Counted from the stretch's first letter, positions 798 through 40,176 are shown. The stretch: 40,176 nt of DNA from a virus (IMGVR_UViG_2698536646_000014); one strand, 5' to 3'. The notes: generated by a model not told the origin, from the sequence alone. Translations and numbers: made by a program.

Positions 798-3700
798 TAT
801 GCAAGCCTCACAATATAGTTAAATGCGATGTTTTTGACGGTGTTTTCCGCGTTACCCGCAGCGTTAACGGTGATGGTATGTCCATGTGAACCAATCGCAA
901 CGGAGTGCGTATGAGCACCAATACCGACAGTATGCGCGTGTGCACCTGCAGATGCTGCTGTGCCGGACAGTGAATGGCTATGATTACCATCTATACTGGT
1001 ATTCGCTAACCACCCCGTAGACATACCTACTGAGCCTTGTACACCCCAGGTATTTTGACCTGAGCTNNNNNNNNNNNNNNNNNNNNNNNNNNNNNNNNNN
1101 NNNNNNNNNNNNNNNNNNNNNNNNNNNNNNNNNNNNNNNNNNNNNNNNNNNNNNNNNNNNNNNNNNNNNNNNNNNNNNNNNNNNNNNNNNNNNNNNNNNN
1201 NNNNNNNNNNNNNNNNNNNNNNNNNNNNNNNNNNNNNNNNNNNNNNNNNNNNNNNNNNNNNNNNNNNNNNNNNNNNNNNNNNNNNNNNNNNNNNNNNNNN
1301 NNNNNNNNNNNNNNNNNNNNNNNNNNNNNNNNNNNNNNNNNNNNNNNNNNNNNNNNNNNNNNNNNNNNNNNNNNNNNNNNNNNNNNNNNNNNNNNNNNNN
1401 NNNNNNNNNNNNNNNNNNNNNNNNNNNNNNNNNNNNNNNNNNNNNNNNNNNNNNNNNNNNNNNNNNNNNNNNNNNNNNNNNNNNNNNNNNNNNNNNNNNN
1501 NNNNNNNNNNNNNNNNNNNNNNNNNNNNNNNNNNNNNNNNNNNNNNNNNNNNNNNNNNNNNNNNNNNNNNTAAGTATCTTTAAAAACACTGGGGTTAAAT
1601 CGACGGCCATCTCTATGGCTGTGATTACCAGCTGCATTCGTGCTGCCACTTAAACTATGGGTATGCGCACCAGTGTTATTCGTGGATTTAGTGCCGTAAT
1701 CAAACGACGATGTGGTTTTCGTCCCCAAATCCGTACTGGATGCGCTGGCGCTGTGGGTATGCGATTTAATGCCGTCCTGTTCCTGAGACAATACGGCCCG
1801 ACCACTGGCAGGTTTGCCCTTAATCGTCCAGCCACGCATATCAGGGATCACGCCTGACGGATAAGCCGCTGCAAGTTTCGGGTATGCAGATTTGTCAAAA
1901 GCCTGCCCCTGCATCAGGGCATAGCCAGACGGAACGGTATCTGATGGCCACGGGATTGGTGCGCCAGGCGGATAAAACTGCTCTGATGGCGTATAGAGTG
2001 AATAAACTGTACCGTCCGTTAACCCTTCCGGCTTATTAGCAGAATATGCTGGTGACGTATGAATCGTCACGCTGGCATTACTGGTATAATCCCATTGAAT
2101 ATTTACACCAGTCGCATAATTTCCGATTGCAACGTAAATATCGTAAGTATCACCAGATGTATTAACCCAGGCAAAATTTGTAAACCCTGTCAATGTGCGC
2201 TGCCATAAAGCACCAGTAATCCCCTTCGGATTACCATTACCTGCACGTAAAACAAGTTCAGATATACCTGCCTGTTGAGGTGACCCCACGTTAAATCCAG
2301 CGCCACCAATCAACGTAATTGAAACAACAGAACTCGCCTGTGGCATGGTTACCGTTGCTAATTTGAACCAACCAGCACCACCGCTGAATGACATTGTTGT
2401 TGAGTTAAGCGTACCAATATCTTTCGGCGTCAGTGTTATATCCGCTGAAAGCGCCTTACCATTCACCTTACGGGCAGAAGGTACCCGACCATTCGCATTG
2501 TCATTAGCTGCTTTCACTGCTTTCGGTGTCGCAGCAAGCGTTTCAGATGTGCTGTTGGTTGCACTACTGAGCTGGACAATTCCTTTTTGTGCTGTCGTAG
2601 CGTCCTGTGCGGTGTATTTCCCGTTAGCCAGGTCATACGCGGCCTTAACGGCTTTTGGCGTTGCCGCCTGTGACTCGGAAGTGCTGTTAGTCGCACTGCT
2701 GAGCTGAACTATCCCTTTCTGTGCTGTCGTTGCATCCTGTGCGGTGTATTTCCCGTTAGCCAGGTCATACGCGGCCTTAACGGCTTTTGGCGTTGCCGCC
2801 TGTGACTCGGAAGTGCTGTTGGTCGCACTGCTGAGCTGTACTATCCCCTTTTTCGTCGTGCTCGCATCCTCAAGCGCCACGGCGGATGCAATATCCTCTG
2901 CCCGTTTTGCTGCTGTCTCGGCGCGCGTTGCCGCGGATTCCGCCGTACTTTTGCTCTGTGCTGCCGCTGCCGCACTGCCAGCAGCCTCTGTCGCCTTCGT
3001 GGATGCCGTCGTGGCGCTGCCCCTCGCTGCTGACGCCTGTCTGGTCGCCTCATCTTTTGAAGCAGACGCAGATGATGCCGATGACGCCGCCGAACTGGCG
3101 GACGATGCGGCAGCCGTTTTTGAGGATTCTGCGCTGGTTTCCGACGCTTTCGCGTTCGTTTCGGATGTCTTCGCTGCGGAAGCAGACCTCGCTGCTGCGC
3201 TGGCCTGTTCAGTGGCTTCGCCAGCCTTCGTTGTGGCTGTTGAAGCGGATGATGCGGCGCTTTCTGCCGATTTTCCGGCGGCGGTGGCACTGACTGCTGC
3301 CTCCTCTGCCTTAATGGACGCCTCACGGGCCGATGATGCAGCTGCTGTCTCAGAGTCTGCCGCAGCTGAGGCGCTCTGTTCCGCTGCCGTTTCAGAAGAC
3401 TTAGCATTCGTCTCGGACGTTTTTGCCGCCTTCACGGAATTTCCTGCCGCCGTTGCCGAGGAGGCTGCACTGCTGGCGCTTGTGGAGGCGTTCGTTTCTG
3501 ATGATTTTGCCGCCTCTTTGGAGGCCGCCGCATCTCTGGCTGAAGTGGCGGCTTCTGACGCTTTCGTTGTCGCAGTGGATGCAGAAGTGGCTGCTGATTT
3601 TTGTGACGCTGCAGCATTCGTTTCTGACGTTTTCGCCGCACCGGCACTGGTGGCCGCCGCGCTTTTTGAGGACTCTGCAGCGGCAGCACTTTTTGATGCT

Positions 3701-25481: not shown

Positions 25482-26534
25482 TTATTTCCCCACCAGCTCG
25501 TTTATCTCTTTCACTGTCTGATTAAACCGCTCTGACTCAAGCTCAACACCTAAGGCCCGACGCCCCAGCGCCATTGCTGCTTTTATTGTGGAACCGGATC
25601 CCATAAAAAAATCAGCAACCAGATCACCTGGTCGACTACTGGCATTGATTATTTGCCTGAGCATATCCGCCGGTTTCTCACACGGATGTTTCCCCGGGTA
25701 GAACTGAACGGGTTTATGCATCCAGACATCGGTATAAGGCACGGAGACTGATACGGAGAAATAGCGCCGGAGAGATTTAAACTCATCCAGCAATTCAGAA
25801 TATTTACGATTCAGTGAATCATAAGATGCCACCAGCTGGTGGTGTGGTTGTTCCAGTTGTTGTTCCTGAAACTTCTCTGCCGCTATACGGGAAAACAGTG
25901 CCTGTAACTTCCGATAGTCAGCCTCATTCGGCAACTGCCACTGACTGGCACCAAACCAGTGGGAAACCATATTTTTCTTACCTGTGGCTTCGGCAATTTG
26001 TTTTGCCGTTATACCCAGTTCGGCACGAGCATCCCTGAAATACGATATCAGCGGTGCCATTATGTGCTGTTTGAGTTCCCTTTCTTTTGCCGCATAGCCG
26101 TCACTTTTGCCGCGATATGGCCCCTGGTAATGTTCAGCAAACAGAACGCGCTCTGTGGCAGGAAAATATGCGCGCAGACTTTCTTTATTACACCCATTCC
26201 AACGTCCGGACGGCTTCGCCCAGATGATATGGTTAAGCACGTTGAAACGTTCACGCATCATGATCTCAATATCAGATGCCAGGCGATGCCCACAGAACAG
26301 GTAAAGGCTTCCGGCAGGTTTCAACACCCGCCAGAACTGGGCCAGACAGTGGTCCAGCCACTTAAGGTAATCTTCGTCCCCTTTCCACTGATTGTCCCAA
26401 CCGTTGGGTTTCACCTTGAAGTAAGGCGGATCGGTAACAATCAGGTCAATGGAATCATCAGGCAGGGACTGAATAAAATGCAGGCAATCAGCGTTGATTA
26501 AATCAACACTGTTTATTTTTACAGTATTTTTCAT
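25482..26534 (-). CDS. orphan DNA methyltransferase (beta-class amino-MTase; probably N6-adenine)
   Basis: 350-aa ORF with motif IV DPPY near the N-terminus ([11 protein letters not shown]) and motif I FxGxG near the C-terminus (DFFMGSGST); no adjacent restriction gene. Confidence 0.8.
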
Positions 26535-26684: not shown

Positions 26685-26888
26685 TTACTGGCAGCGTCTG
26701 AATTTATTCCCGTACCCGCCGTTATCCTTCGCCAGACCCGCCAGAACTAACTGAGTCAGTATTAACTGGCACCGGGCTTCGCTTACTCCGGTAGTTCTCG
26801 TCATCATGCGTGGCGTTACCCACTTGTCAGCAGGTAAGAAATGAAGGACTGCGGCGGCGGTTTCTGTCATATCTTGCTGTTTTAGCAT
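26685..26888 (-). CDS. small hypothetical protein (possible winged-helix DNA-binding)
   Basis: 67-aa ORF from internal ATG with AAGGGA RBS-like sequence; no recognisable homology. Confidence 0.3.
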   Translation of the reverse strand: MLKQQDMTETAAAVLHFLPADKWVTPRMMTRTTGVSEARCQLILTQLVLAGLAKDNGGYGNKFRRCQ

Positions 26889-27005
26889 GTCTTTTTCCCT
26901 TCTGGTTAACATGACATACCAATAACTCTTGTCTAAAAAGCCAGCAAGATAAAAAGTCAGTATTCACGACCACCAGCGTGTTTACTGTACTGCACCAAGT
27001 TTACG

Positions 27006-27034
27006 GGTACAAAAAACCCGCTCAGTGGCGGGTT
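27006..27034 (-). terminator. terminator hairpin, second copy of the tR'-like element, downstream of the lipoprotein gene
   Basis: ggtacaaaaaacccgctcagtggcgggtt, near-identical to the element at 27682-27710 (2 mismatches in 29 bp). Confidence 0.6.
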
Positions 27035-27111
27035 GCTATCACAGCTATATATTTACTTATTATGCCGTTACTAACATTTATCTTCGACATATAATCGAAA
27101 ACAAGGTTTGC

Positions 27112-27537
27112 TTAAAACTCTGCTTTCATTTTATCCGGGAATTTTTTATTTGCAGCATAATAACTACCAAGTACATAAGCGTTCATTTGCTGCTCTACAT
27201 CAACCCGACATGCCGCACTAGAACAAGCTCCACTGATAAGCCCAAAAGAACTCCCTTTAGCAGAGAGATCAGCTTTGATTTCCTCTACAGTGTTTTTCCC
27301 CATAGCAACTACACACCCTGTCACAATATATCTAGCTTTCACATCATCCATGCTAAGGATAGTAGTTTTCGCAATTTTGCTGTATCCATCATTTTTATAA
27401 ACATCCATGGCAAACGCACGGCAATCTGTATAATACGGACTTGCTTTAACTTGCGAATACTCAGGTAATTTCATACCTGCACAACCAACTAAACAAAAAC
27501 CTATCGCTGCTATTAATACCTTTTTCATTACAGTCAT
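27112..27537 (-). CDS. lipoprotein of unknown function (moron)
   Basis: Signal peptide and lipobox (MKKVLIAAIGFCLVGCAG); AT-rich codon usage unlike the surrounding phage genes; flanked by duplicated terminator hairpins. Confidence 0.7.
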   Translation of the reverse strand: MTVMKKVLIAAIGFCLVGCAGMKLPEYSQVKASPYYTDCRAFAMDVYKNDGYSKIAKTTILSMDDVKARYIVTGCVVAMGKNTVEEIKADLSAKGSSFGLISGACSSAACRVDVEQQMNAYVLGSYYAANKKFPDKMKAEF

Positions 27538-27681
27538 AACCTAGAAGCATCATTGAAACTAATTTATTAAATAACCATCGAGTTTCTGGAATACAGACGT
27601 TAACCATCTCTCCAAAATCTAAAAGATAATAAGAAAAAATGTTTAACGCACCAATCCATTTCATAGTTTCATGAGACATCA

Positions 27682-27713
27682 GGCACAAAAAACCCGCTCA
27701 GCGGCGGGTTTTT
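27682..27713 (-). terminator. tR'-like intrinsic terminator (bidirectional) downstream of the late promoter
   Basis: acaaaaaacccgc-tcagcg-gcgggttttt; A-run and T-run on both sides. Confidence 0.7.
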
Positions 27714-27756
27714 GACATTTACCAACGGTAGACATACAAGGCCCATCGTTGAGAAA

Positions 27757-27785
27757 ATCTTATCCATATTTTTTGAAAAATGCAA
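27757..27785 (-). promoter_or_regulatory. pR'-like late promoter downstream of Q
   Basis: Minus strand TTGCAT - 17 bp - TAAGAT, about 35 bp after the Q stop and about 60 nt before the terminator hairpin. Confidence 0.55.
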
Positions 27786-27816
27786 GTATCACGTCGACAT
27801 CTTCGGCGAAAATTAT

Positions 27817-28569
27817 CTATCTTGTCACTTTTCTCAATTGCGATTCAGCATACGCTTCTTCCTGCCAGCACTTTGTAACCAGTTTATTAATAACGTCTGC
27901 ATATCCTTTGTACCACTGATAATCCGTCAGGTCCGGTACCAGTTTCTGGACATGATGCCGCGCCAGTGTGGTTGGTAAACGGCTAAACCGGTTGCCATTG
28001 CAACGCCCACAAATCTTATAAACAGGCACACCATGAAGCCGGGTTCTTTTTTCATCCAGGACAATACCTTTACCCTTACACCCTCTGCACGCTGTGCTGA
28101 CTTCTCCCTTACCATGGCAATGCTGACATAGTTCCTTCACCCACTCTTCCTTGATAACAGATTCCCCGCTTCTGGAGTGTTTCACCACTTCGCGCAATAC
28201 ATTATGAAATCCAGTACCAGCACAATGCTCACAGCGAGCCTTACTTGCCGCAGACCTGGAATAATCAGCAAAGGCAAAATTCACAAGGTAAGGGATGATC
28301 TGTAACCGGGTTTCTTCACTCAATTTGTTCAATGTCGGGTTATCCAGTGCCATCGCGTAATTGAGCAGACCTTCAATCGCAAATTGAGGATCCTGAACAC
28401 CAACTTTTGCCAGGAATAAGGCAAACCCAAGCGGTGCTTTCGACTGCACCATCCCCTGCGCAGCCATCACATCCGTAATCGTTAAACCACCTGAGCCTGT
28501 CGCCGGTGCGTCATCGCTCAATTTTGGAGATTTTGGGGAGTAATATTTTGGTAAGGCTTCAAGGTTCAT
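27817..28569 (-). CDS. late-gene antiterminator Q (Cys-rich, phage-82 / QuuQ-like type)
   Basis: 250-aa ORF from the ATG preceded by GGAGAA; several CxxC pairs (CEHCAGTG, CQHCHGKG, CRGCKGKG, CGRCNG); located just upstream of the pR'/tR' pair and lysis genes. Confidence 0.7.
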   Translation of the reverse strand: MNLEALPKYYSPKSPKLSDDAPATGSGGLTITDVMAAQGMVQSKAPLGFALFLAKVGVQDPQFAIEGLLNYAMALDNPTLNKLSEETRLQIIPYLVNFAFADYSRSAASKARCEHCAGTGFHNVLREVVKHSRSGESVIKEEWVKELCQHCHGKGEVSTACRGCKGKGIVLDEKRTRLHGVPVYKICGRCNGNRFSRLPTTLARHHVQKLVPDLTDYQWYKGYADVINKLVTKCWQEEAYAESQLRKVTR

Positions 28570-35024: not shown

Positions 35025-35699
35025 ATGAAAACAGTCCATGACATCCGGCGGTCTAACGCCAGAAAACTGAGAGATGGTGTTGGCGGGAATTCTTCCTTTG
35101 CCACCATGATTGATCGCGAGCCAACCCAGACCAGCAGGTTTATGGGAGATGGTGCAACTAAAAATATCGGTGACAGCATGGCACGGCACATCGAAAAATG
35201 TTTCGACCTGCCTGTCGGATGGCTTGATCAAGAACACCAGACAACGAACATCACAAAAAAACCTGACGTTTCAATCACTAACAAACAAATAACGTTAGTC
35301 CCTGTCATATCATGGGTACAGGCCGGAGCATGGAAAGAAGTTGGCTATTCTGAGGTTGATTTGAGCACAGCAGAAACTTATCCCTGCCCTGTACCCTGTG
35401 GCGAAATGACTTATATCTTGCGGGTGATTGGTGATTCAATGATTGATGAGTACCGCCCGGGAGACATGATTTTTGTTGATCCTGAAGTCCCTGCCTGCCA
35501 CGGTGACGACGTTATTGCATTGATGCACGATACAGGCGAAACCACCTTCAAGCGGTTGATAGAAGATGGAACACAGCGTTATCTCAAAGCATTAAACCCA
35601 AACTGGCCTGAGCCTTACATTAAGATTAACGGTAATTGCTCTATAATTGGTACAGTGATTTTCTCAGGAAAACCAAGAAGATACATAATAAAGGCCTAA
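35025..35699 (+). CDS. CI-type prophage repressor (N-terminal HTH, C-terminal S24 LexA-like peptidase)
   Basis: 224-aa ORF with C-terminal autocleavage domain: GDSM serine motif and downstream lysine (TFKRL), PGD turn. Confidence 0.85.
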   Translation: MKTVHDIRRSNARKLRDGVGGNSSFATMIDREPTQTSRFMGDGATKNIGDSMARHIEKCFDLPVGWLDQEHQTTNITKKPDVSITNKQITLVPVISWVQAGAWKEVGYSEVDLSTAETYPCPVPCGEMTYILRVIGDSMIDEYRPGDMIFVDPEVPACHGDDVIALMHDTGETTFKRLIEDGTQRYLKALNPNWPEPYIKINGNCSIIGTVIFSGKPRRYIIKA

Positions 35700-35710
35700 T
35701 CAATATTTAT

Positions 35711-35735
35711 AACCTGCTTCGGCAGGTTTTTTTAT
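35711..35735 (+). terminator. intrinsic terminator after the cI-like gene
   Basis: acctgc-ttcg-gcaggt followed by TTTTTTT. Confidence 0.75.
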
Positions 35736-35737
35736 AC

Positions 35738-35766
35738 TTGACAATGTACCTTTGGGATACATAATG
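35738..35766 (+). promoter_or_regulatory. pL-like early-left promoter with embedded operator
   Basis: TTGACA - 17 bp - ATAATG; the spacer contains ATGTACCTTTGGGATACAT, same half-site as the OR palindromes. Confidence 0.65.
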
Positions 35767-36201
35767 TATCTAAAAGAAACACAGCACAGGCAAGATTAAA
35801 CAAAATTTGGTTGTAACACGGCGTATGGCACATGCGTCGTTAGCGGTCTGGGGACGTTAAAGGGGACAATCCACTCCTTGCTCGGGCAAACAAACCAGGT
35901 AGCCGGAATGTGCAAGTCAATGATGATGCTGATAAGACGCCTAACCAGCGTGGCGATTCGGTTTGACGCCTGGGAAGAGACCAGGGTGCAACGATGAGGA
36001 CATTTATGGAACCGCGACAAAGTGTGGTGCCGTAACTGGCTAAGTGCTCTCAGCGTTGTGGTGAATGCGCAGGCTGATGCGCGAAAGACATTGCAGCTAA
36101 TGCGGAAAAGAGCTGTTCGGCGGGGCAATTAAACGCCCGTGAGAGTCTGAAATAACCGCAAGCCGGAGATCAGCACCGGTCACCACAACAGCCACTGCTT
36201 T

Positions 36202-36247
36202 GGCGGTACCAGTTTGTACACTTGCTTCCGGCTGGTACCGCTCTTTT
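36202..36247 (+). terminator. strong hairpin plus T-run at the end of the untranslated leader
   Basis: 10-bp arms gcggtaccag / ctggtaccgc around a 19-nt loop, followed by CTCTTTTT. Coordinates approximate (1-2 bp). Confidence 0.55.
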
Positions 36248-36385
36248 TACAAAACAGAGAAGAGCATCACCGGACGACGGGCTCATAACCAAATCCATCC
36301 GGGCGGCTGCCACCGCAGGTGTTCTTCTCTGTTTTGTGGAGAAACCAACCGACCTTGCAGGGTCGATATGATTAGGAGCAGCAAA

Positions 36386-36748
36386 ATGGCTAGCGAACGC
36401 AGTACTGATGTGCAGGCATTTATTGGGGAGCTGGACGGCGGCGTATTTGAAACCAAAATCGGCGCAGTTCTCAGTGAAGTCGCTTCCGGTGTGATGAACA
36501 CGAAAACCAAAGGTAAGGTCTCACTCAACCTGGAAATCGAACCATTTGATGAGAACCGTGTGAAAATCAAACACAAACTCTCATATGTTCGCCCGACTAA
36601 CCGCGGGAAAATTTCCGAAGAAGACACCACCGAAACGCCGATGTATGTCAATCGCGGTGGTCGCCTGACTATTCTGCAGGAAGACCAGGGACAATTACTG
36701 ACTCTTGCCGGTGAACCTGACGGAAAACTCCGCGCAGCAGGTCATTAA
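36386..36748 (+). CDS. hypothetical protein, YfdP-like
   Basis: 120-aa ORF from the ATG preceded by AGGAG; upstream part of the track ORF runs through the terminator hairpin and is not coding. Confidence 0.55.
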   Translation: MASERSTDVQAFIGELDGGVFETKIGAVLSEVASGVMNTKTKGKVSLNLEIEPFDENRVKIKHKLSYVRPTNRGKISEEDTTETPMYVNRGGRLTILQEDQGQLLTLAGEPDGKLRAAGH

Positions 36749-36813
36749 TATCGTTCTTAATTAACCGATTATTTATCTCATCACTGAATATCTTTATATA
36801 GTGAGGACTTATT

Positions 36814-37638
36814 ATGTCTCAGAACTTAGACGCAACCGCAATTAATCAAATCCATGCCCTTATTTCTGCTCAGGGTGTTAATGAAATTATCAGTAAGATT
36901 GGTGCCGATGCTGTGGCATTGCCTGAGAATTTCCGCATTCATGATCTGGAAAAATTAAATTTAAATCGTTTCCGTTTCCGTGGTGCGCTTTCCACTGCCA
37001 GCATCGATGACTTTACTCGTTATTCTAAAGATCTTGCAGATGAAGGCACCCGCTGCTTTATCGATGCTGATAATATGCGTGCCGTCAGTGTTCTTAACCT
37101 GGGTACTATTGATGAACCAGGTCACGCAGATAACACCGCCACTCTCAAACTGAAAAAGACAGCTCCGTTCTCTGCTCTGTTGTCTGTTAATGGCGAGCGT
37201 AACTCCCAGAAGTCACTGGCAGAATGGATTGAAGACTGGGCCGACTACCTTGTGGGCTTTGATGCTAATGGTGACGCCATTCAGGCAACCAAAGCGGCTG
37301 CGGCGATCCGTAAAATCACAATTGAAGCGAACCAGACCGCTGATTTTGAAGATAATGACTTCAGCGGCAAACGCTCCCTGATGGAGTCTGTCGAAGCGAA
37401 GACCAAAGACATTATGCCAGTGGCATTTGAATTTAAATGCGTTCCGTTTGAAGGTCTGAAAGAACGTCCGTTTAAATTACGCCTCAGCATTATCACTGGC
37501 GATCGTCCTGTACTGGTTCTGCGCATTATTCAGCTGGAAGCGGTACAGGAAGAAATGGCTAACGAATTTCGTGATCTGCTTGTTGAGAAATTCAAAGACA
37601 GCAAAGTAGAAACCTTTATTGGTACTTTCACCGCCTGA
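36814..37638 (+). CDS. YfdQ-like protein (DUF2303)
   Basis: 274-aa ORF, same length as E. coli CPS-53 YfdQ as recalled; follows the YfdP-like gene. Confidence 0.55.
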
Positions 37639-37649
37639 TTTCATTACTG

Positions 37650-37673
37650 CAAATGCCCCTGCGGGGGCATTTA
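37650..37673 (+). terminator. terminator-like hairpin after the YfdQ-like gene
   Basis: tgcccc-tgcg-ggggca followed by TTTA; weak U-tract. Confidence 0.45.
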
Positions 37674-37814
37674 CGGAAGCGATAATTTTAACTATTGCCG
37701 CCCCTATAAAGAACCATTAAACAATAACGTGACGTAGCTATTGATAGTAAATGAAGCACTTGCAAAATAATTGCATTGCGTATATATACACACATGTGTT
37801 GTATTACAGCGATA

Positions 37815-38609
37815 ATGGTAAAGCAAATGATTAACTCTGAAGCAATTGAGCAACTAATGTGGCTATGGTCCTTATTTGACATTAAATTCTTATCTATTCT
37901 TGCCGCTGCCTTCACTATATATTTTGGCGTGCAAAAAATATCAAAAAAGGTGACAGTGTCGTATTCAGCAAATGCAAGTAGAATATATGACATGCATATA
38001 TCAACCATAATCCTGAATAATAAAAGAGATAATGCAATTGCTATATCTTCAATCAATATGGAGGTTGAAGGTAAAGGGATACTACAAGTTATTAAATTTG
38101 ACTCCCCTCTTCTTTTAAAGAACTATGATTCTTTAAAAGTTGAACCACCAAAATTTAGCAGCCTTTACAATAATGATGGCGTAGTTAAGTTAGATATTTC
38201 TGATAAGTTTCATTTTTATATAATCACGACATCTGGAGATGAAATTAAATGTATTTCTGAAAATAAATATGTAGCACCAAACATGGAAAACAAAATAGCT
38301 ACAGACATAAGAAAATTTAATGGCATTGTCTTAACAAACAGAATGTCTTATATTTTTTTCTATGCAAATGACAACGGAGAGAAATACTGCATAATAGATG
38401 TTTCATTGTTCATAAATGGTGACAACCCATTTCATTTTAATTTTTTAAAAGAAGATGAATTAAGAGATTTTTCTAGCATCCTTATTAGTTACGGATATCA
38501 CCAACAGTTTAAAAGTTATGCATTGTTTAAAATAGACAACCATCTTGCTCCTTCTTTGGTTTTAAATAAATCAATGATAGAAAATAATATTATTGAAATG
38601 AATAAGTAA
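37815..38609 (+). CDS. AT-rich gene for an N-terminally membrane-anchored protein of unknown function (candidate exclusion/abortive-infection protein)
   Basis: About 264 aa; one N-terminal hydrophobic helix (LMWLWSLFDIKFLSILAAAFTIYFGV); Asn/Lys/Ile-rich; very low GC versus neighbours; own promoter-like TTGCAA - about 17 bp - TATATA (about 37760-37788). Start 37815 or 37827. Confidence 0.6.
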   Translation: MVKQMINSEAIEQLMWLWSLFDIKFLSILAAAFTIYFGVQKISKKVTVSYSANASRIYDMHISTIILNNKRDNAIAISSINMEVEGKGILQVIKFDSPLLLKNYDSLKVEPPKFSSLYNNDGVVKLDISDKFHFYIITTSGDEIKCISENKYVAPNMENKIATDIRKFNGIVLTNRMSYIFFYANDNGEKYCIIDVSLFINGDNPFHFNFLKEDELRDFSSILISYGYHQQFKSYALFKIDNHLAPSLVLNKSMIENNIIEMNK

Positions 38610-38645
38610 CTCACCGGGTGCAGCCGGTTATGATGGAGAAATGAT

Positions 38646-38927
38646 ATGAATACCTTGTTTTTACTGATGGCTGAATTCAATACCCCAAACATTGAACTCT
38701 CAGCAGTTAGTCAAAAATACTTTGGTATGAGTCCAGCCACAGCAGAAGCAAAAGCAAACGCTTGTAAGTTGCCTGTACCTACATATCGCATCGGTACATC
38801 ACAAAAAGCAAAACGTTGCATCAATATTCAGGATCTTGCGGAATACATAGACAAAAGACGAGAAGAAGGACGTATCGAGTGGGAACAGGTCAGAACAGGC
38901 AAACAGAAGGGCAAAGAACATCACTAA
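38646..38927 (+). CDS. PrtN-like transcriptional activator (pyocin-activator family)
   Basis: 93-aa ORF MNTLFLLMAEFNTPNIELSAVSQKYFGMSPATAEAKANACKLPVPTYRIGTSQKAKRCINIQDLAEYIDKRREEG; GGAGA RBS. Confidence 0.6.
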   Translation: MNTLFLLMAEFNTPNIELSAVSQKYFGMSPATAEAKANACKLPVPTYRIGTSQKAKRCINIQDLAEYIDKRREEGRIEWEQVRTGKQKGKEHH

Positions 38928-38929
38928 AG

Positions 38930-38956
38930 AAAAAACCCGCCTAAAGGCGGGTTTTC
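38930..38956. terminator. bidirectional intrinsic terminator between convergent operons
   Basis: aaaaaacccgcc-taaa-ggcgggtttt. Confidence 0.75.
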
Positions 38957-38974
38957 AAAAAGCACCAGCTATGA

Positions 38975-39148
38975 TCATGCTGCTTTGCGACGACGAAGCT
39001 TACCCTGCTGCTCTTTACCAGAGACAGTAGCGTGAGTGAACGCATTAGGAGCAGCCTTCATCAGAACTTCAACAGCAGCACCCATACCTGCGAATGCTTT
39101 CATTGTGTCGAACTTAACCTGTGGCTTGGTTGCTTTTTGATCTTCCAT
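38975..39148 (-). CDS. small basic protein (57 aa), not in ORF track
   Basis: ATG preceded by GGAG at 8 nt; translation MEDQKATKPQVKFDTMKAFAGMGAAVEVLMKAAPNAFTHATVSGKEQQGKLRRRKAA; ends 2 bp before the bidirectional terminator. Confidence 0.4.
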   Translation of the reverse strand: MEDQKATKPQVKFDTMKAFAGMGAAVEVLMKAAPNAFTHATVSGKEQQGKLRRRKAA

Positions 39149-39187
39149 AGAAAACTCCAGAAGCTATACCGAAACAATTCCTGTTGT

Positions 39188-39607
39188 TTACTCATCATCA
39201 ATAGATGATACGCAATATTTATTTTTAAATTTAAGGTTCTTTGGCGTAACTTCATCAGATATATCAAAACCGTCCAGAATTCTATTGAATGTAGCTTCTG
39301 GCATATCATCATGAACGGAAATCTCACCCGATCGCTGCTTTCTAACCATGTTATCCACTCGCCAAATTATAGCTTCAGCGTAAACAACATAACTTGGATG
39401 CTTGATAAAGCGATGATCACCAGAATTCAAGACGCAAGACGGATCGTGGGGGACACCATCCTTGATACTAGAAATATTAACAACTAAAACACAATAACAA
39501 TCGTTAACGGGGTAATAAACAGGATCATTACAAATCACATGAAGATGATTGCATGGCCCAGTTGGGGCAAGCACAGTTCCTTTCCTGTATGGCTGATAAT
39601 CCGTCAT
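39188..39607 (-). CDS. 139-aa protein of unknown function; candidate toxin/effector partner of the upstream Panacea-domain gene
   Basis: ATG overlaps the upstream gene stop (ATGA); no membrane segment; several Cys/His; no family recognised. Confidence 0.55.
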   Translation of the reverse strand: MTDYQPYRKGTVLAPTGPCNHLHVICNDPVYYPVNDCYCVLVVNISSIKDGVPHDPSCVLNSGDHRFIKHPSYVVYAEAIIWRVDNMVRKQRSGEISVHDDMPEATFNRILDGFDISDEVTPKNLKFKNKYCVSSIDDE

Positions 39608-40176
39608 GATAATTGCAAAGAAAATTCCTTAAGTTTCTGAGATTCTTCCATTTTGCCAATTATACGATTAGCCTCATCCTCGCTTTTACCCTCACTGATC
39701 AGCATTTCTTTCAGGTCTATAGGCTTACGAGAATTGCCAGGATTGTGCCACTCTGGACAAACGCTTTCTAAATGCGTCATGTTTGCGAGATCAAATCGGT
39801 TCATATGCCCATACAGAGAATAGATTTCATCTAAAATCCGGATATCTGCACGGCTCAACTCATCAAAGACCTCGTCTGCATCCATTTCCCTCGGATCTGA
39901 ACGCAACAACACATCATGCCCGTTCGTCTCTATCAGGTTGTACCAGTAGTCACCAATACCTTCAGCCTTACCACGAATCAAGTTCAGCGTATTCGACATG
40001 ACTGGACCAAATTTCATAGAGTAAAGGCTATCTTCGCCGATCATCCTGCCATGCTTCAAAATCGACTTGCGGTTAGACAGATAGAGCAGCTTCATCAATT
40101 TCAGATATGCCATGCGCCCACCTCGCTTAAGAAGTAGGTATGCAGCCATTTGAGCTACTTTTTCTTCGCAAAACAT
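39604..40176 (-). CDS. Panacea-domain (DUF4065) protein, putative PanA-type antitoxin; ORF reaches the window edge
   Basis: N-terminal signature ...AAYLLLKRGGRMAYLKLMKLLYLSNRKS...YSMKFGPV (KLqKLLY...GPV pattern). First in-window codon is ATG at 40174-40176, so true start could lie beyond the window. Confidence 0.6.
   Translation of the reverse strand: MFCEEKVAQMAAYLLLKRGGRMAYLKLMKLLYLSNRKSILKHGRMIGEDSLYSMKFGPVMSNTLNLIRGKAEGIGDYWYNLIETNGHDVLLRSDPREMDADEVFDELSRADIRILDEIYSLYGHMNRFDLANMTHLESVCPEWHNPGNSRKPIDLKEMLISEGKSEDEANRIIGKMEESQKLKEFSLQLS

What the first reader, a model, noticed from the sequence alone, without database searches (positions are those of the whole stretch)
37640..38620. AT-rich, self-contained gene for a membrane-anchored protein in the early-left region
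This stretch of about 1 kb has markedly lower GC than the flanking phage genes. It encodes one roughly 264-aa protein with a single N-terminal hydrophobic helix and an Asn/Lys/Ile-rich soluble body. It has its own sigma70-like promoter and follows a terminator-like hairpin, so it looks like an independently expressed horizontally acquired cassette. Single-gene membrane-anchored proteins at this position often act as superinfection-exclusion or abortive-infection factors; I recognise no homologue.
Basis: partly seen in the sequence, partly recalled or inferred. Interest (0 to 1): 0.75.

Follow-up and report, generated by a model that had tools for sequence, protein, structure and literature searches.

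The report
Uncharacterised membrane-tethered prophage cargo gene
A 925-bp AT-rich segment swapped into an E. coli lambdoid prophage encodes a 260-residue inner-membrane-tethered protein from an uncharacterised family that repeatedly sits next to phage-defence genes, so it is a credible but untested candidate anti-phage gene.

Summary
The observation largely holds. Window 37689-38613 is a 925-bp replacement segment. Its ORF (29% GC) is the lowest-GC stretch of the window (mean 51%). It carries one real gene, 37827-38609 (+), 260 aa (not 264).

The protein has one N-terminal TM helix and a confidently modelled (pLDDT 94) two-domain beta-rich body. Charge distribution places the body in the cytoplasm.

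The "own promoter" is not above chance. There is no terminator of its own. The upstream hairpin belongs to the neighbouring yfdQ module.

Homologues have no conserved partner gene. They occupy accessory slots of many mobile elements, including a P2-like slot between portal/ogr and gpA, next to xis/int, and the Q-holin slot. They also sit beside or inside type I R-M operons, a Pycsar system and PDC-S31.

Best reading: a stand-alone, membrane-tethered anti-phage (Abi/Sie-type) protein. This rests on association only, and the mechanism is inferred. It is a new candidate family of a familiar kind, of moderate interest.

The parts
37651..37672 (+). Stable GC-rich hairpin directly after the yfdQ (DUF2303) stop. 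It belongs to the conserved upstream module and marks the left recombination boundary.
   Evidence: dG -19.4 kcal/mol, z -3.7. The same 49 nt occur in SfV, SfIV, mEp460 and Stx2c phages and were matched in 2,334 E. coli genomes. It is annotated 'terminator' in phage Ayreon but has a weak U tail and was not scored by the scan.
37689..38613 (+). The 925-bp AT-rich replacement segment: 138 nt upstream region, the ORF, and 4 nt after the stop.
   Evidence: Homology to sister prophages (L032, L033, L035-L038) ends at 37687/37688 and resumes at 38614. GC is about 29%. No flanking direct or inverted repeats typical of a transposon were found.
37760..37788 (+). Candidate promoter, TTGCAA-17 nt-TATATA. 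Hypothetical.
   Evidence: Read from the sequence. A similar TTGTAA ... TATAC box aligns upstream of the Citrobacter orthologue. Promoter-like sites are not enriched over shuffles in this region.
37827..38609 (+). Protein-coding gene, 260 aa (WP_047654657.1, 'hypothetical protein'), PHROG 14996.
   Evidence: ORF. PGAP annotation in 100%-identical E. coli loci. PHROG 14996, E = 2.4e-178, full length. Eleven close clusters of conserved length. pN 0.22-0.40 versus pS 0.72-0.85 among orthologues. AlphaFold2 model with pLDDT 94.
37857..37931 (+). Codons for residues 11-35, the single N-terminal transmembrane helix. The predicted orientation is N-out / C-in.
   Evidence: Kyte-Doolittle maximum 1.68. 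Modelled as a helix over residues 4-38. In 108 of 126 family members the C-side flank carries more K/R than the N-side flank (mean 2.5 versus 0.6).
37950..38249 (+). Codons for residues 42-141, an Ig-like beta-sandwich domain. It carries the family-wide conserved N65, K/R67, D68, P94, K98, E/D101 and S111. The conserved C142 is the next residue.
38292..38603 (+). Codons for residues 156-259, a second mixed beta/alpha domain. It carries the conserved FNG.V, Y175, Y179 and G.I..(W).F..N motif.
   Evidence: Model and conservation. No separate structural match was found.
38646..38927 (+). Downstream PrtN-family / excisionase-like gene. It is probably co-transcribed with the target, because no terminator lies between them.
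   Evidence: Pfam PF11112, E = 3e-23. PHROG 1300 'excisionase', E = 1e-39. The intergenic fold is weak.
38931..38956 (.). Strong bidirectional intrinsic terminator. It closes the rightward (+) operon and the convergent minus-strand cargo genes.
   Evidence: The terminator scan found 11 pairs followed by a T run. dG -18 to -19 kcal/mol on both strands, z about -4.6.

Best explanation
The segment is a horizontally exchanged, single-gene accessory cassette of a dusA-integrated lambdoid prophage. It replaced the usual yfdR-to-exonuclease block of the early-left operon.

Its product is tethered to the inner membrane by one N-terminal helix. A short N-terminal stub lies outside, and two beta-rich domains lie in the cytoplasm.

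I consider it most likely a stand-alone anti-phage protein acting at the cytoplasmic face of the inner membrane. The proposed mechanism is that the tandem beta domains recognise a component of an infecting phage. The protein then either blocks genome entry or early development, or self-associates through its helix to damage the membrane and abort the infection.

Shown here:
- the gene is real and under purifying selection;
- the protein architecture;
- the cassette replacement;
- the absence of a conserved partner gene;
- repeated placement in accessory and defence slots of mobile elements.

Inferred:
- the topology (from the positive-inside rule);
- the defence function (from association);
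- the sensing and effector steps, which are speculative.
For: 1. The gene is real. Orthologues keep their length, the AlphaFold2 model reaches pLDDT 94 / pTM 0.83, and pN is far below pS.
2. It is cargo. It is the lowest-GC stretch of the window. It has exact junctions at 37689 and 38613. It is present in 99 of 5,426 complete E. coli genomes, whereas the flanking PrtN gene is in 741. It is kept across prophages with different repressors and different TA cargo.
3. No partner gene is conserved between loci. It therefore appears to act alone or with host or phage factors.
4. Homologues sit in accessory or defence slots:
- Providencia P2-like prophage, between portal/ogr and gpA;
- directly after hsdM-S-R plus a YgjP-like gene in a Syntrophobacteraceae genome;
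- inside a type I R-M operon, between hsdS and hsdR, together with MNT/HEPN-like, Bro-N and RhuM genes;
- 63 nt downstream of a Pycsar pair, PycTM + PycC, E = 2.6e-94;
- adjacent or near PDC-S31 in two unrelated loci;
- an island with HEPN_LA2681, DUF4062 and MvaT;
- next to xis/int in Citrobacter islands;
- next to phage methyltransferases in Klebsiella and Hafnia-like prophages.
5. Occasional inactivation: IS1 insertion in E. coli E89, a transposase insertion in Pseudoalteromonas, and a frameshift in Vibrio. I take such decay to be common for defence genes (my own knowledge, not tested here).
6. Published base rate: 6 of 8 randomly chosen unknown-function loci at P4 hotspots protected against phages (PMC13586616).
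Against: - No sequence match to any PADLOC model, for the protein or for any of the 126 family members.
- No Pfam or NCBIfam family.
- No solved-structure relative.
- Fold searches give only generic Ig-like sandwiches.
- No recognisable enzymatic or pore-forming module, and only one TM helix.
- Most of the defence-adjacent contexts belong to homologues only 21-27% identical to the E. coli protein.
- Six of the nine marine/other genome loci yielded no PADLOC hit among the neighbours scanned, and neighbours overall include housekeeping genes (hut genes, FdhD, a LysR regulator).
- PDC-S31 is itself only a candidate defence gene.
- The gene lies in the repressor-controlled early-left operon. Its own promoter is unproven, so it may not be made in the lysogen.
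- Constitutive read-through into the xis-like gene would be awkward for prophage stability.
- The protein is not in the DefensePredictor supplementary text held here.
Confidence: 0.5

Rival explanations
1. Classical superinfection exclusion. The protein is made in the lysogen and, from the inner membrane, blocks DNA translocation of incoming siphophages. It might do so by interfering with the inner-membrane entry route, without killing the cell.
For: Prophage location and the membrane anchor. In E. coli the gene is always in a lambda-like siphovirus prophage. No toxic or enzymatic domain is recognisable.
Against: Homologues also occur outside prophages, inside R-M operons and next to Pycsar. 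From my own knowledge, that is unusual for narrow, phage-specific Sie proteins. No similarity to any annotated Sie family appeared in PHROGs or Pfam. Expression in the lysogen is unproven.
Confidence: 0.2
2. A non-defence accessory (moron) gene. For example, an early-left lytic-cycle function of the phage, a modulator of host envelope or membrane physiology, or a neutral passenger kept by linkage.
For: It sits in the early-left operon, where lambdoid phages carry many dispensable genes of other functions. It probably shares a transcript with the xis-like gene. Several homologue loci have only housekeeping or unknown neighbours.
Against: The same family is embedded in type I R-M operons and placed directly beside Pycsar and PDC-S31 in non-prophage DNA. 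A phage-development role does not explain that. Purifying selection and near-identical copies in different genera (96.7% between a Colwelliaceae and a Pseudoalteromonas genome) argue for a portable, host-independent benefit.
Confidence: 0.22
3. A counter-defence gene, or a selfish addiction/toxin gene: an anti-defence factor of mobile elements, or a membrane toxin whose regulator lies elsewhere.
For: Mobile-element cargo next to TA modules: the Panacea pair in the window, and YafO and CbtA/CbeA near homologues. The Klebsiella prophage that carries a homologue also encodes an Acb2/Tad1-like protein.
Against: No partner (antitoxin) gene is conserved. Placement inside host R-M operons and beside Pycsar fits a defence role better than an anti-defence role. 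No similarity to known anti-defence proteins was seen.
Confidence: 0.08

Closest known systems
PHROG 14996 (unknown function)
   Same: Full-length match, E = 2.4e-178, covering residues 5-264 of the 264-aa reading, that is the 260-aa protein. The Klebsiella and Providencia homologues hit the same PHROG.
   Different: The PHROG carries no function. It says only that the protein has been seen in (pro)phage genomes.
Prophage inner-membrane superinfection-exclusion proteins (P22 SieA, lambda SieB, HK97 gp15, T4 Imm). This comparison is from my own knowledge.
   Same: A single prophage gene, a membrane anchor, a location in an accessory slot, and AT-rich composition.
   Different: No sequence or profile similarity was detected. 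This protein is larger (260 aa), has two folded cytoplasmic beta domains, and has homologues outside prophages.
Membrane-associated abortive-infection effectors, such as Pycsar PycTM and CBASS 2TM/4TM effectors
   Same: Small membrane proteins found in defence islands. One homologue lies immediately next to a Pycsar pair.
   Different: Those effectors have two or more TM helices and depend on a cyclase signal. This protein has one TM helix, no match to their PADLOC models, and no conserved partner gene.
Ig-like beta-sandwich proteins with an N-terminal helix (archaeal type IV pilins 8fk7/6w8u, ApaG 1xvs, CupB2 3q48, Spo0M 5cl2)
PDC-S31 (DUF2971), a single-gene phage-defence candidate in PADLOC
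   Same: Co-located with family members in two unrelated loci. Also a single-gene candidate defined by association.
   Different: It is a different protein with no homology to the target, and it is itself unvalidated.

Membership tests
PHROG 14996 | Significant full-length match to the profile | tested here: met
   E = 2.4e-178, profile positions 1-260 of 260.
Known or candidate anti-phage defence proteins (PADLOC-DB v2.0.0) | Match to a PADLOC protein model | tested here: not met
   No family at E <= 1 for the window protein. Among the 126 family members there were only two isolated chance-level hits, E 0.0016 and 0.0099.
Defence-island / hotspot-associated gene (guilt by association) | Repeated, independent co-location with recognised defence systems or placement in established mobile-element defence hotspots | tested here: met
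   Type I R-M twice, Pycsar, PDC-S31 twice, the P2-like portal-gpA slot, and a HEPN/DUF4062 island. This is not a statistical enrichment test. The sample is about 20 contexts, several of which lack defence neighbours.
Superinfection-exclusion proteins | Expressed from the repressed prophage | not testable with these tools
   Only consensus promoter scans were possible, and these were not above chance. Transcript data from a lysogen are needed.
Superinfection-exclusion proteins | Homology to a characterised Sie family | tested here: not met
   The only PHROG hit is an unknown-function family, and there is no Pfam or NCBIfam hit.
Superinfection-exclusion / Abi proteins | Reduces infection by other phages | not testable with these tools
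   Requires a plaque or liquid-infection assay.
Single-pass inner-membrane protein | One hydrophobic helix of TM length, with flanking charge asymmetry | tested here: met
   KD 1.68 over residues 13-31, and a modelled helix over residues 4-38. The K/R bias to the C-side is seen in 108 of 126 members. This is a prediction only.
Autonomous expression cassette (promoter + gene + terminator) | Own promoter | tested here: inconclusive
   6 promoter-like sites against 7.5 +/- 2.6 in shuffles. A TTGCAA-17-TATATA box is partly conserved in Citrobacter.
Autonomous expression cassette (promoter + gene + terminator) | Own terminator | tested here: not met
   The intergenic fold has dG -8.7, z -0.6, and no terminator-like site was found before 38931.
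Pfam Ig_TMEM131L_3 (PF24498) | Score above the gathering threshold | tested here: not met
   16.1 bits against a cut-off of 28.

The most novel reading that the evidence does not exclude
The gene founds a previously undescribed family of single-protein anti-phage immunity factors. The family comprises about 220 clusters at 50% identity, mainly in Gammaproteobacteria and their phages. Its architecture has no characterised relative: an N-out single TM helix, a cytoplasmic Ig-like sandwich and a novel second domain. On this reading it senses infection at the inner face of the membrane and works without any partner gene.
Probability: 0.4. Interest if true: 0.65.

Novelty: new variant of a known kind. 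Interest (0 to 1): 0.5.

Why it matters
If the protein protects against phages, it would add a compact single-gene defence family with no recognisable enzymatic or pore-forming domain. Its mechanism would therefore have to be new in detail.

It would also document the yfdQ-xis interval of dusA-integrated lambdoid prophages as an exchangeable cargo slot. That slot lies beside a second variable slot carrying Panacea-type toxin-antitoxin pairs.

If the gene is not defensive, the finding is an ordinary prophage moron of unknown function.

Tried and rejected
- Pfam, NCBIfam and PADLOC scans of the protein and of 126 family members gave nothing usable.
- A profile search of PDB sequences returned only a chance hit to mucolipin-2, E about 0.1.
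- tblastn against 50,697 deposited phage genomes found no match. The gene is so far seen only in prophages and metagenomes.
- The NKRD motif at residues 65-68 looks like a GTPase G4 box. I rejected this: there is no P-loop and the fold is an all-beta sandwich.
- I looked for a partner gene by comparing neighbours in all loci and found none. The Citrobacter 477-aa, Providencia 361-aa and Klebsiella 113-aa neighbours are unrelated to one another and have no PADLOC hit.
- A search for transposon-like terminal repeats around the segment found none.
- An Rfam scan of 35500-40176 gave only sub-threshold hits on the terminator at 38931-38956.
- The antisense ORFs (37688-38056 and 38516-38692, minus strand) are treated as chance ORFs in AT-rich DNA. 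PGAP annotates no minus-strand gene there in the identical E. coli loci.
- Literature searches by accession numbers and PHROG id gave no paper. The DefensePredictor supplements do not list the protein.
- The search for related loci with the wide alignments failed because no stretch was conserved enough.

Full report
**What the window is**

The window is a lambda-like siphovirus prophage. It is 99.9% identical over most of its length to a prophage of E. coli A14 (NZ_CP028760.1) that is integrated at dusA.

On the + strand, the end of the window reads as follows:
- a LexA-family repressor (35025-35699);
- yfdP;
- yfdQ/DUF2303 (36814-37638);
- the target gene;
- a PrtN-family / excisionase-like gene (38646-38927).

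Three convergent minus-strand genes follow, ending in a Panacea-domain gene. In the reference genome the dusA fragment that marks the prophage end comes next. The integrase lies at the opposite end of the prophage, outside the window.

**Checking the observation**

The composition claim is correct.
- The ORF is 29.0% GC (GC3 26%).
- All N-free windows of the same length average 51.3% +/- 5.8%, so z = -3.9.
- It is the lowest-GC stretch of the window.

The long ORF 37776-38609 is real. Its start is best placed at ATG 37827, which gives 260 aa.
- Every homologue begins M-(I/L/Y)-N at that position.
- The Klebsiella copy has a strong Shine-Dalgarno sequence before it.
- PGAP annotates 260 aa.
- The PHROG profile begins there.

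The protein has one hydrophobic segment (residues ~10-35) and is rich in Ile, Ser, Asn and Lys.

The upstream hairpin (37651-37672) is stable: dG -19.4 kcal/mol, z = -3.7. However, it belongs to the conserved 3' flank of yfdQ. The same sequence is found in SfV, mEp460 and Stx2c phages and was matched in 2,334 E. coli genomes. It has only a short U tail, and the terminator scan did not score it.

The 'own promoter' claim is not supported statistically. Six promoter-like sites were found against 7.5 +/- 2.6 in shuffles. A TTGCAA-17-TATATA box at 37760-37788 is partly conserved upstream of the Citrobacter orthologue. I regard it as a hypothesis.

There is no terminator between the stop codon and the xis-like gene (dG -8.7, z = -0.6). 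The first strong terminator, which is bidirectional, is at 38931-38956. The gene is therefore not a fully self-contained unit.

**The cassette and its slot**

Comparison with sister prophages places the junctions exactly. Homology stops at 37687/37688 and resumes at 38614, four bases after the stop codon.

In SfV, mEp460, O157:H7, O91:H21 and other strains the same interval holds a different block. That block runs from yfdR (5'-deoxynucleotidase), through a few small genes, to a 3'-5' exonuclease, and is about 2.3 kb long. Here it is replaced by 925 bp of AT-rich DNA.

- The PrtN gene is found in 741 of 5,426 complete E. coli genomes. The target gene is found in 99.
- Every E. coli copy I inspected sits in this same slot.
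- The host prophages differ in repressor type and in the toxin-antitoxin cargo beyond xis.
- One copy is disrupted by IS1.
- No transposon-like repeats flank the segment.

**The protein**

The protein has no Pfam, NCBIfam or PADLOC match. It does match PHROG 14996, of unknown function, over its full length.

- A word-indexed search of 5.8 billion proteins found only 11 close clusters, from E. coli, Citrobacter, Klebsiella and metagenomes.
- An exhaustive profile search found 221 clusters at 50% identity. Most are 230-290 aa with the same layout.
- None of the 126 members tested matches a Pfam family or a PADLOC model.
- Sources call every named member 'hypothetical protein'.

Among orthologues pN is 0.22-0.40 while pS is saturated at 0.72-0.85. 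All copies are 29-33% GC, whatever the host.

With the 126-sequence alignment AlphaFold2 gives pLDDT 94 and pTM 0.83. The model has three parts:
- a helix over residues 4-38;
- an Ig-like beta sandwich over residues 42-141;
- a second mixed beta/alpha domain over residues 156-259.

Family-wide conserved residues are K37, N65, K/R67, D68, P94, K98, E/D101, S111, C142, G194 and N205. I could not relate them to a known active site.

The flank after the helix carries 2.5 K/R on average, against 0.6 before it. It is the more positive flank in 108 of 126 members. By the positive-inside rule the folded body is cytoplasmic, and only about ten residues face the periplasm.

**Genomic contexts of relatives**

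No neighbouring gene is shared between loci. The family gene therefore moves and presumably works alone.

Prophage and island contexts:
- Citrobacter: immediately upstream of xis and int, in several different islands.
- Klebsiella: in a podovirus-like prophage, after an MT-A70 methylase.
- A metagenomic lambdoid element: before xis/int.
- A Hafnia-like lambdoid prophage: between a DNA methyltransferase downstream of Q and the holins.
- Providencia stuartii: in a P2-like prophage, between portal/ogr and gpA. From my own knowledge, this is where P2 carries old and tin. The same prophage has a TIR-like gene beside int.

Contexts next to defence genes:
- A Syntrophobacteraceae genome: directly after hsdM-S-R and a YgjP-like gene.
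- A metagenomic type I R-M operon: between hsdS and hsdR, with MNT/HEPN-like, Bro-N and RhuM genes.
- Paraglaciecola algarum: 63 nt downstream of a Pycsar pair.
- Next to or near PDC-S31/DUF2971 in a soil prophage end and in a Vibrio genome.
- An island with HEPN_LA2681, DUF4062, an M78 peptidase and MvaT.

Other observations:
- Other marine loci have unknown or housekeeping neighbours.
- Copies in a Colwelliaceae and a Pseudoalteromonas genome are 96.7% identical in different surroundings. This indicates recent transfer.
- Two copies are broken, one by a transposase insertion and one by a frameshift.

**Interpretation**

The pattern has three elements: a single portable gene, persistently AT-rich, in the accessory slots of many kinds of mobile element. 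It is also repeatedly beside or inside recognised defence loci. This is the pattern by which defence genes have been predicted in the field.

A recent study found that 6 of 8 randomly chosen unknown-function loci at P4 hotspots did protect against phages (PMC13586616). None of the systems named there resembles this protein.

I therefore favour an anti-phage role, with about 0.5 confidence. The site of action would be the cytoplasmic face of the inner membrane.

Whether it excludes incoming DNA or aborts infection cannot be decided here. I lean to an abortive or sensor-type action because relatives occur outside prophages. A plain non-defence moron remains a serious rival (about 0.2).

The claims of autonomous expression are the weakest part.

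**Novelty and value**

The protein family is uncharacterised and has no detectable relative among known defence, Sie or Abi proteins. The kind of object, a single-gene membrane-anchored prophage cargo that is a candidate defence factor, is familiar.

Large numbers of such candidates are currently being predicted. DefensePredictor alone reports nearly 3,000 unexplained clusters (PMC13092281).

I rate the interest at 0.5. It is a clean, testable candidate with a confident structural model and a well-defined exchange slot, but it is not surprising in kind.

Noticed in passing
window 39188-40176 (minus strand): A Panacea-domain (SocA-like antitoxin) gene at 39604-40176 overlaps by 4 nt (ATGA) a downstream 128/139-aa gene of unknown function (PHROG 19071). 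This looks like a PanA-type toxin-antitoxin pair. In sister prophages the same interval between xis and the dusA fragment holds other pairs, including a different Panacea gene with a 182-aa partner and a YafO toxin with its partner. It is therefore a second variable cargo slot.
   Followed up: partly
window 1068-1570: A run of about 500 N interrupts the tail-fibre gene region. ORFs and composition values there are artefacts.
   Followed up: yes
L002 41871-45399 (E. coli A14, just beyond the window's left end): In the near-identical reference prophage, the far end next to the integrase and intact dusA carries a reverse transcriptase gene overlapping a SLATT-domain gene, plus a DinI-like gene. 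This is a likely RT-based defence module. The integrase is separated from the xis-like gene by the whole prophage.
   Followed up: no
window 26781-28103: A second low-GC stretch (below 40%) lies downstream of the antiterminator gene. It contains small hypothetical genes, including 27112-27537 (minus strand). A DNA methyltransferase gene lies at 25482-26534, just before the lysis genes. This is another moron-type slot.
   Followed up: no
window 38931-38956 and 38975-39148: A strong bidirectional terminator separates the + strand operon from the convergent minus-strand genes. A conserved 57-aa minus-strand ORF (WP_000390072.1) of unknown function lies just beyond it. The sub-threshold Rfam hits (rnk_pseudo, sroH, RNAI) all centre on the terminator and are not meaningful.
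   Followed up: partly
L007-L010 6015-7448 (Citrobacter): A 477-aa gene with no Pfam, PADLOC or PHROG match always precedes the Citrobacter orthologue in the module next to xis/int. The DNA further upstream differs between loci: a P4-like satellite, CbtA/CbeA islands, or another element.
   Followed up: partly
L011-L013 8831-9916 and 14355-15278 (Providencia stuartii P2-like prophage): A 361-aa gene (PHROG 17460, unknown function) follows the family member in the portal-gpA slot. A TIR-like gene (PADLOC TIR effector model, E = 2.6e-9) sits between the C repressor and the integrase.
   Followed up: partly
L003-L006 14352-14612 (Klebsiella prophage): The Klebsiella prophage that carries a homologue also encodes an Acb2/Tad1-hairpin family protein, an anti-CBASS/anti-Thoeris sponge family, among its structural genes.
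   Followed up: no
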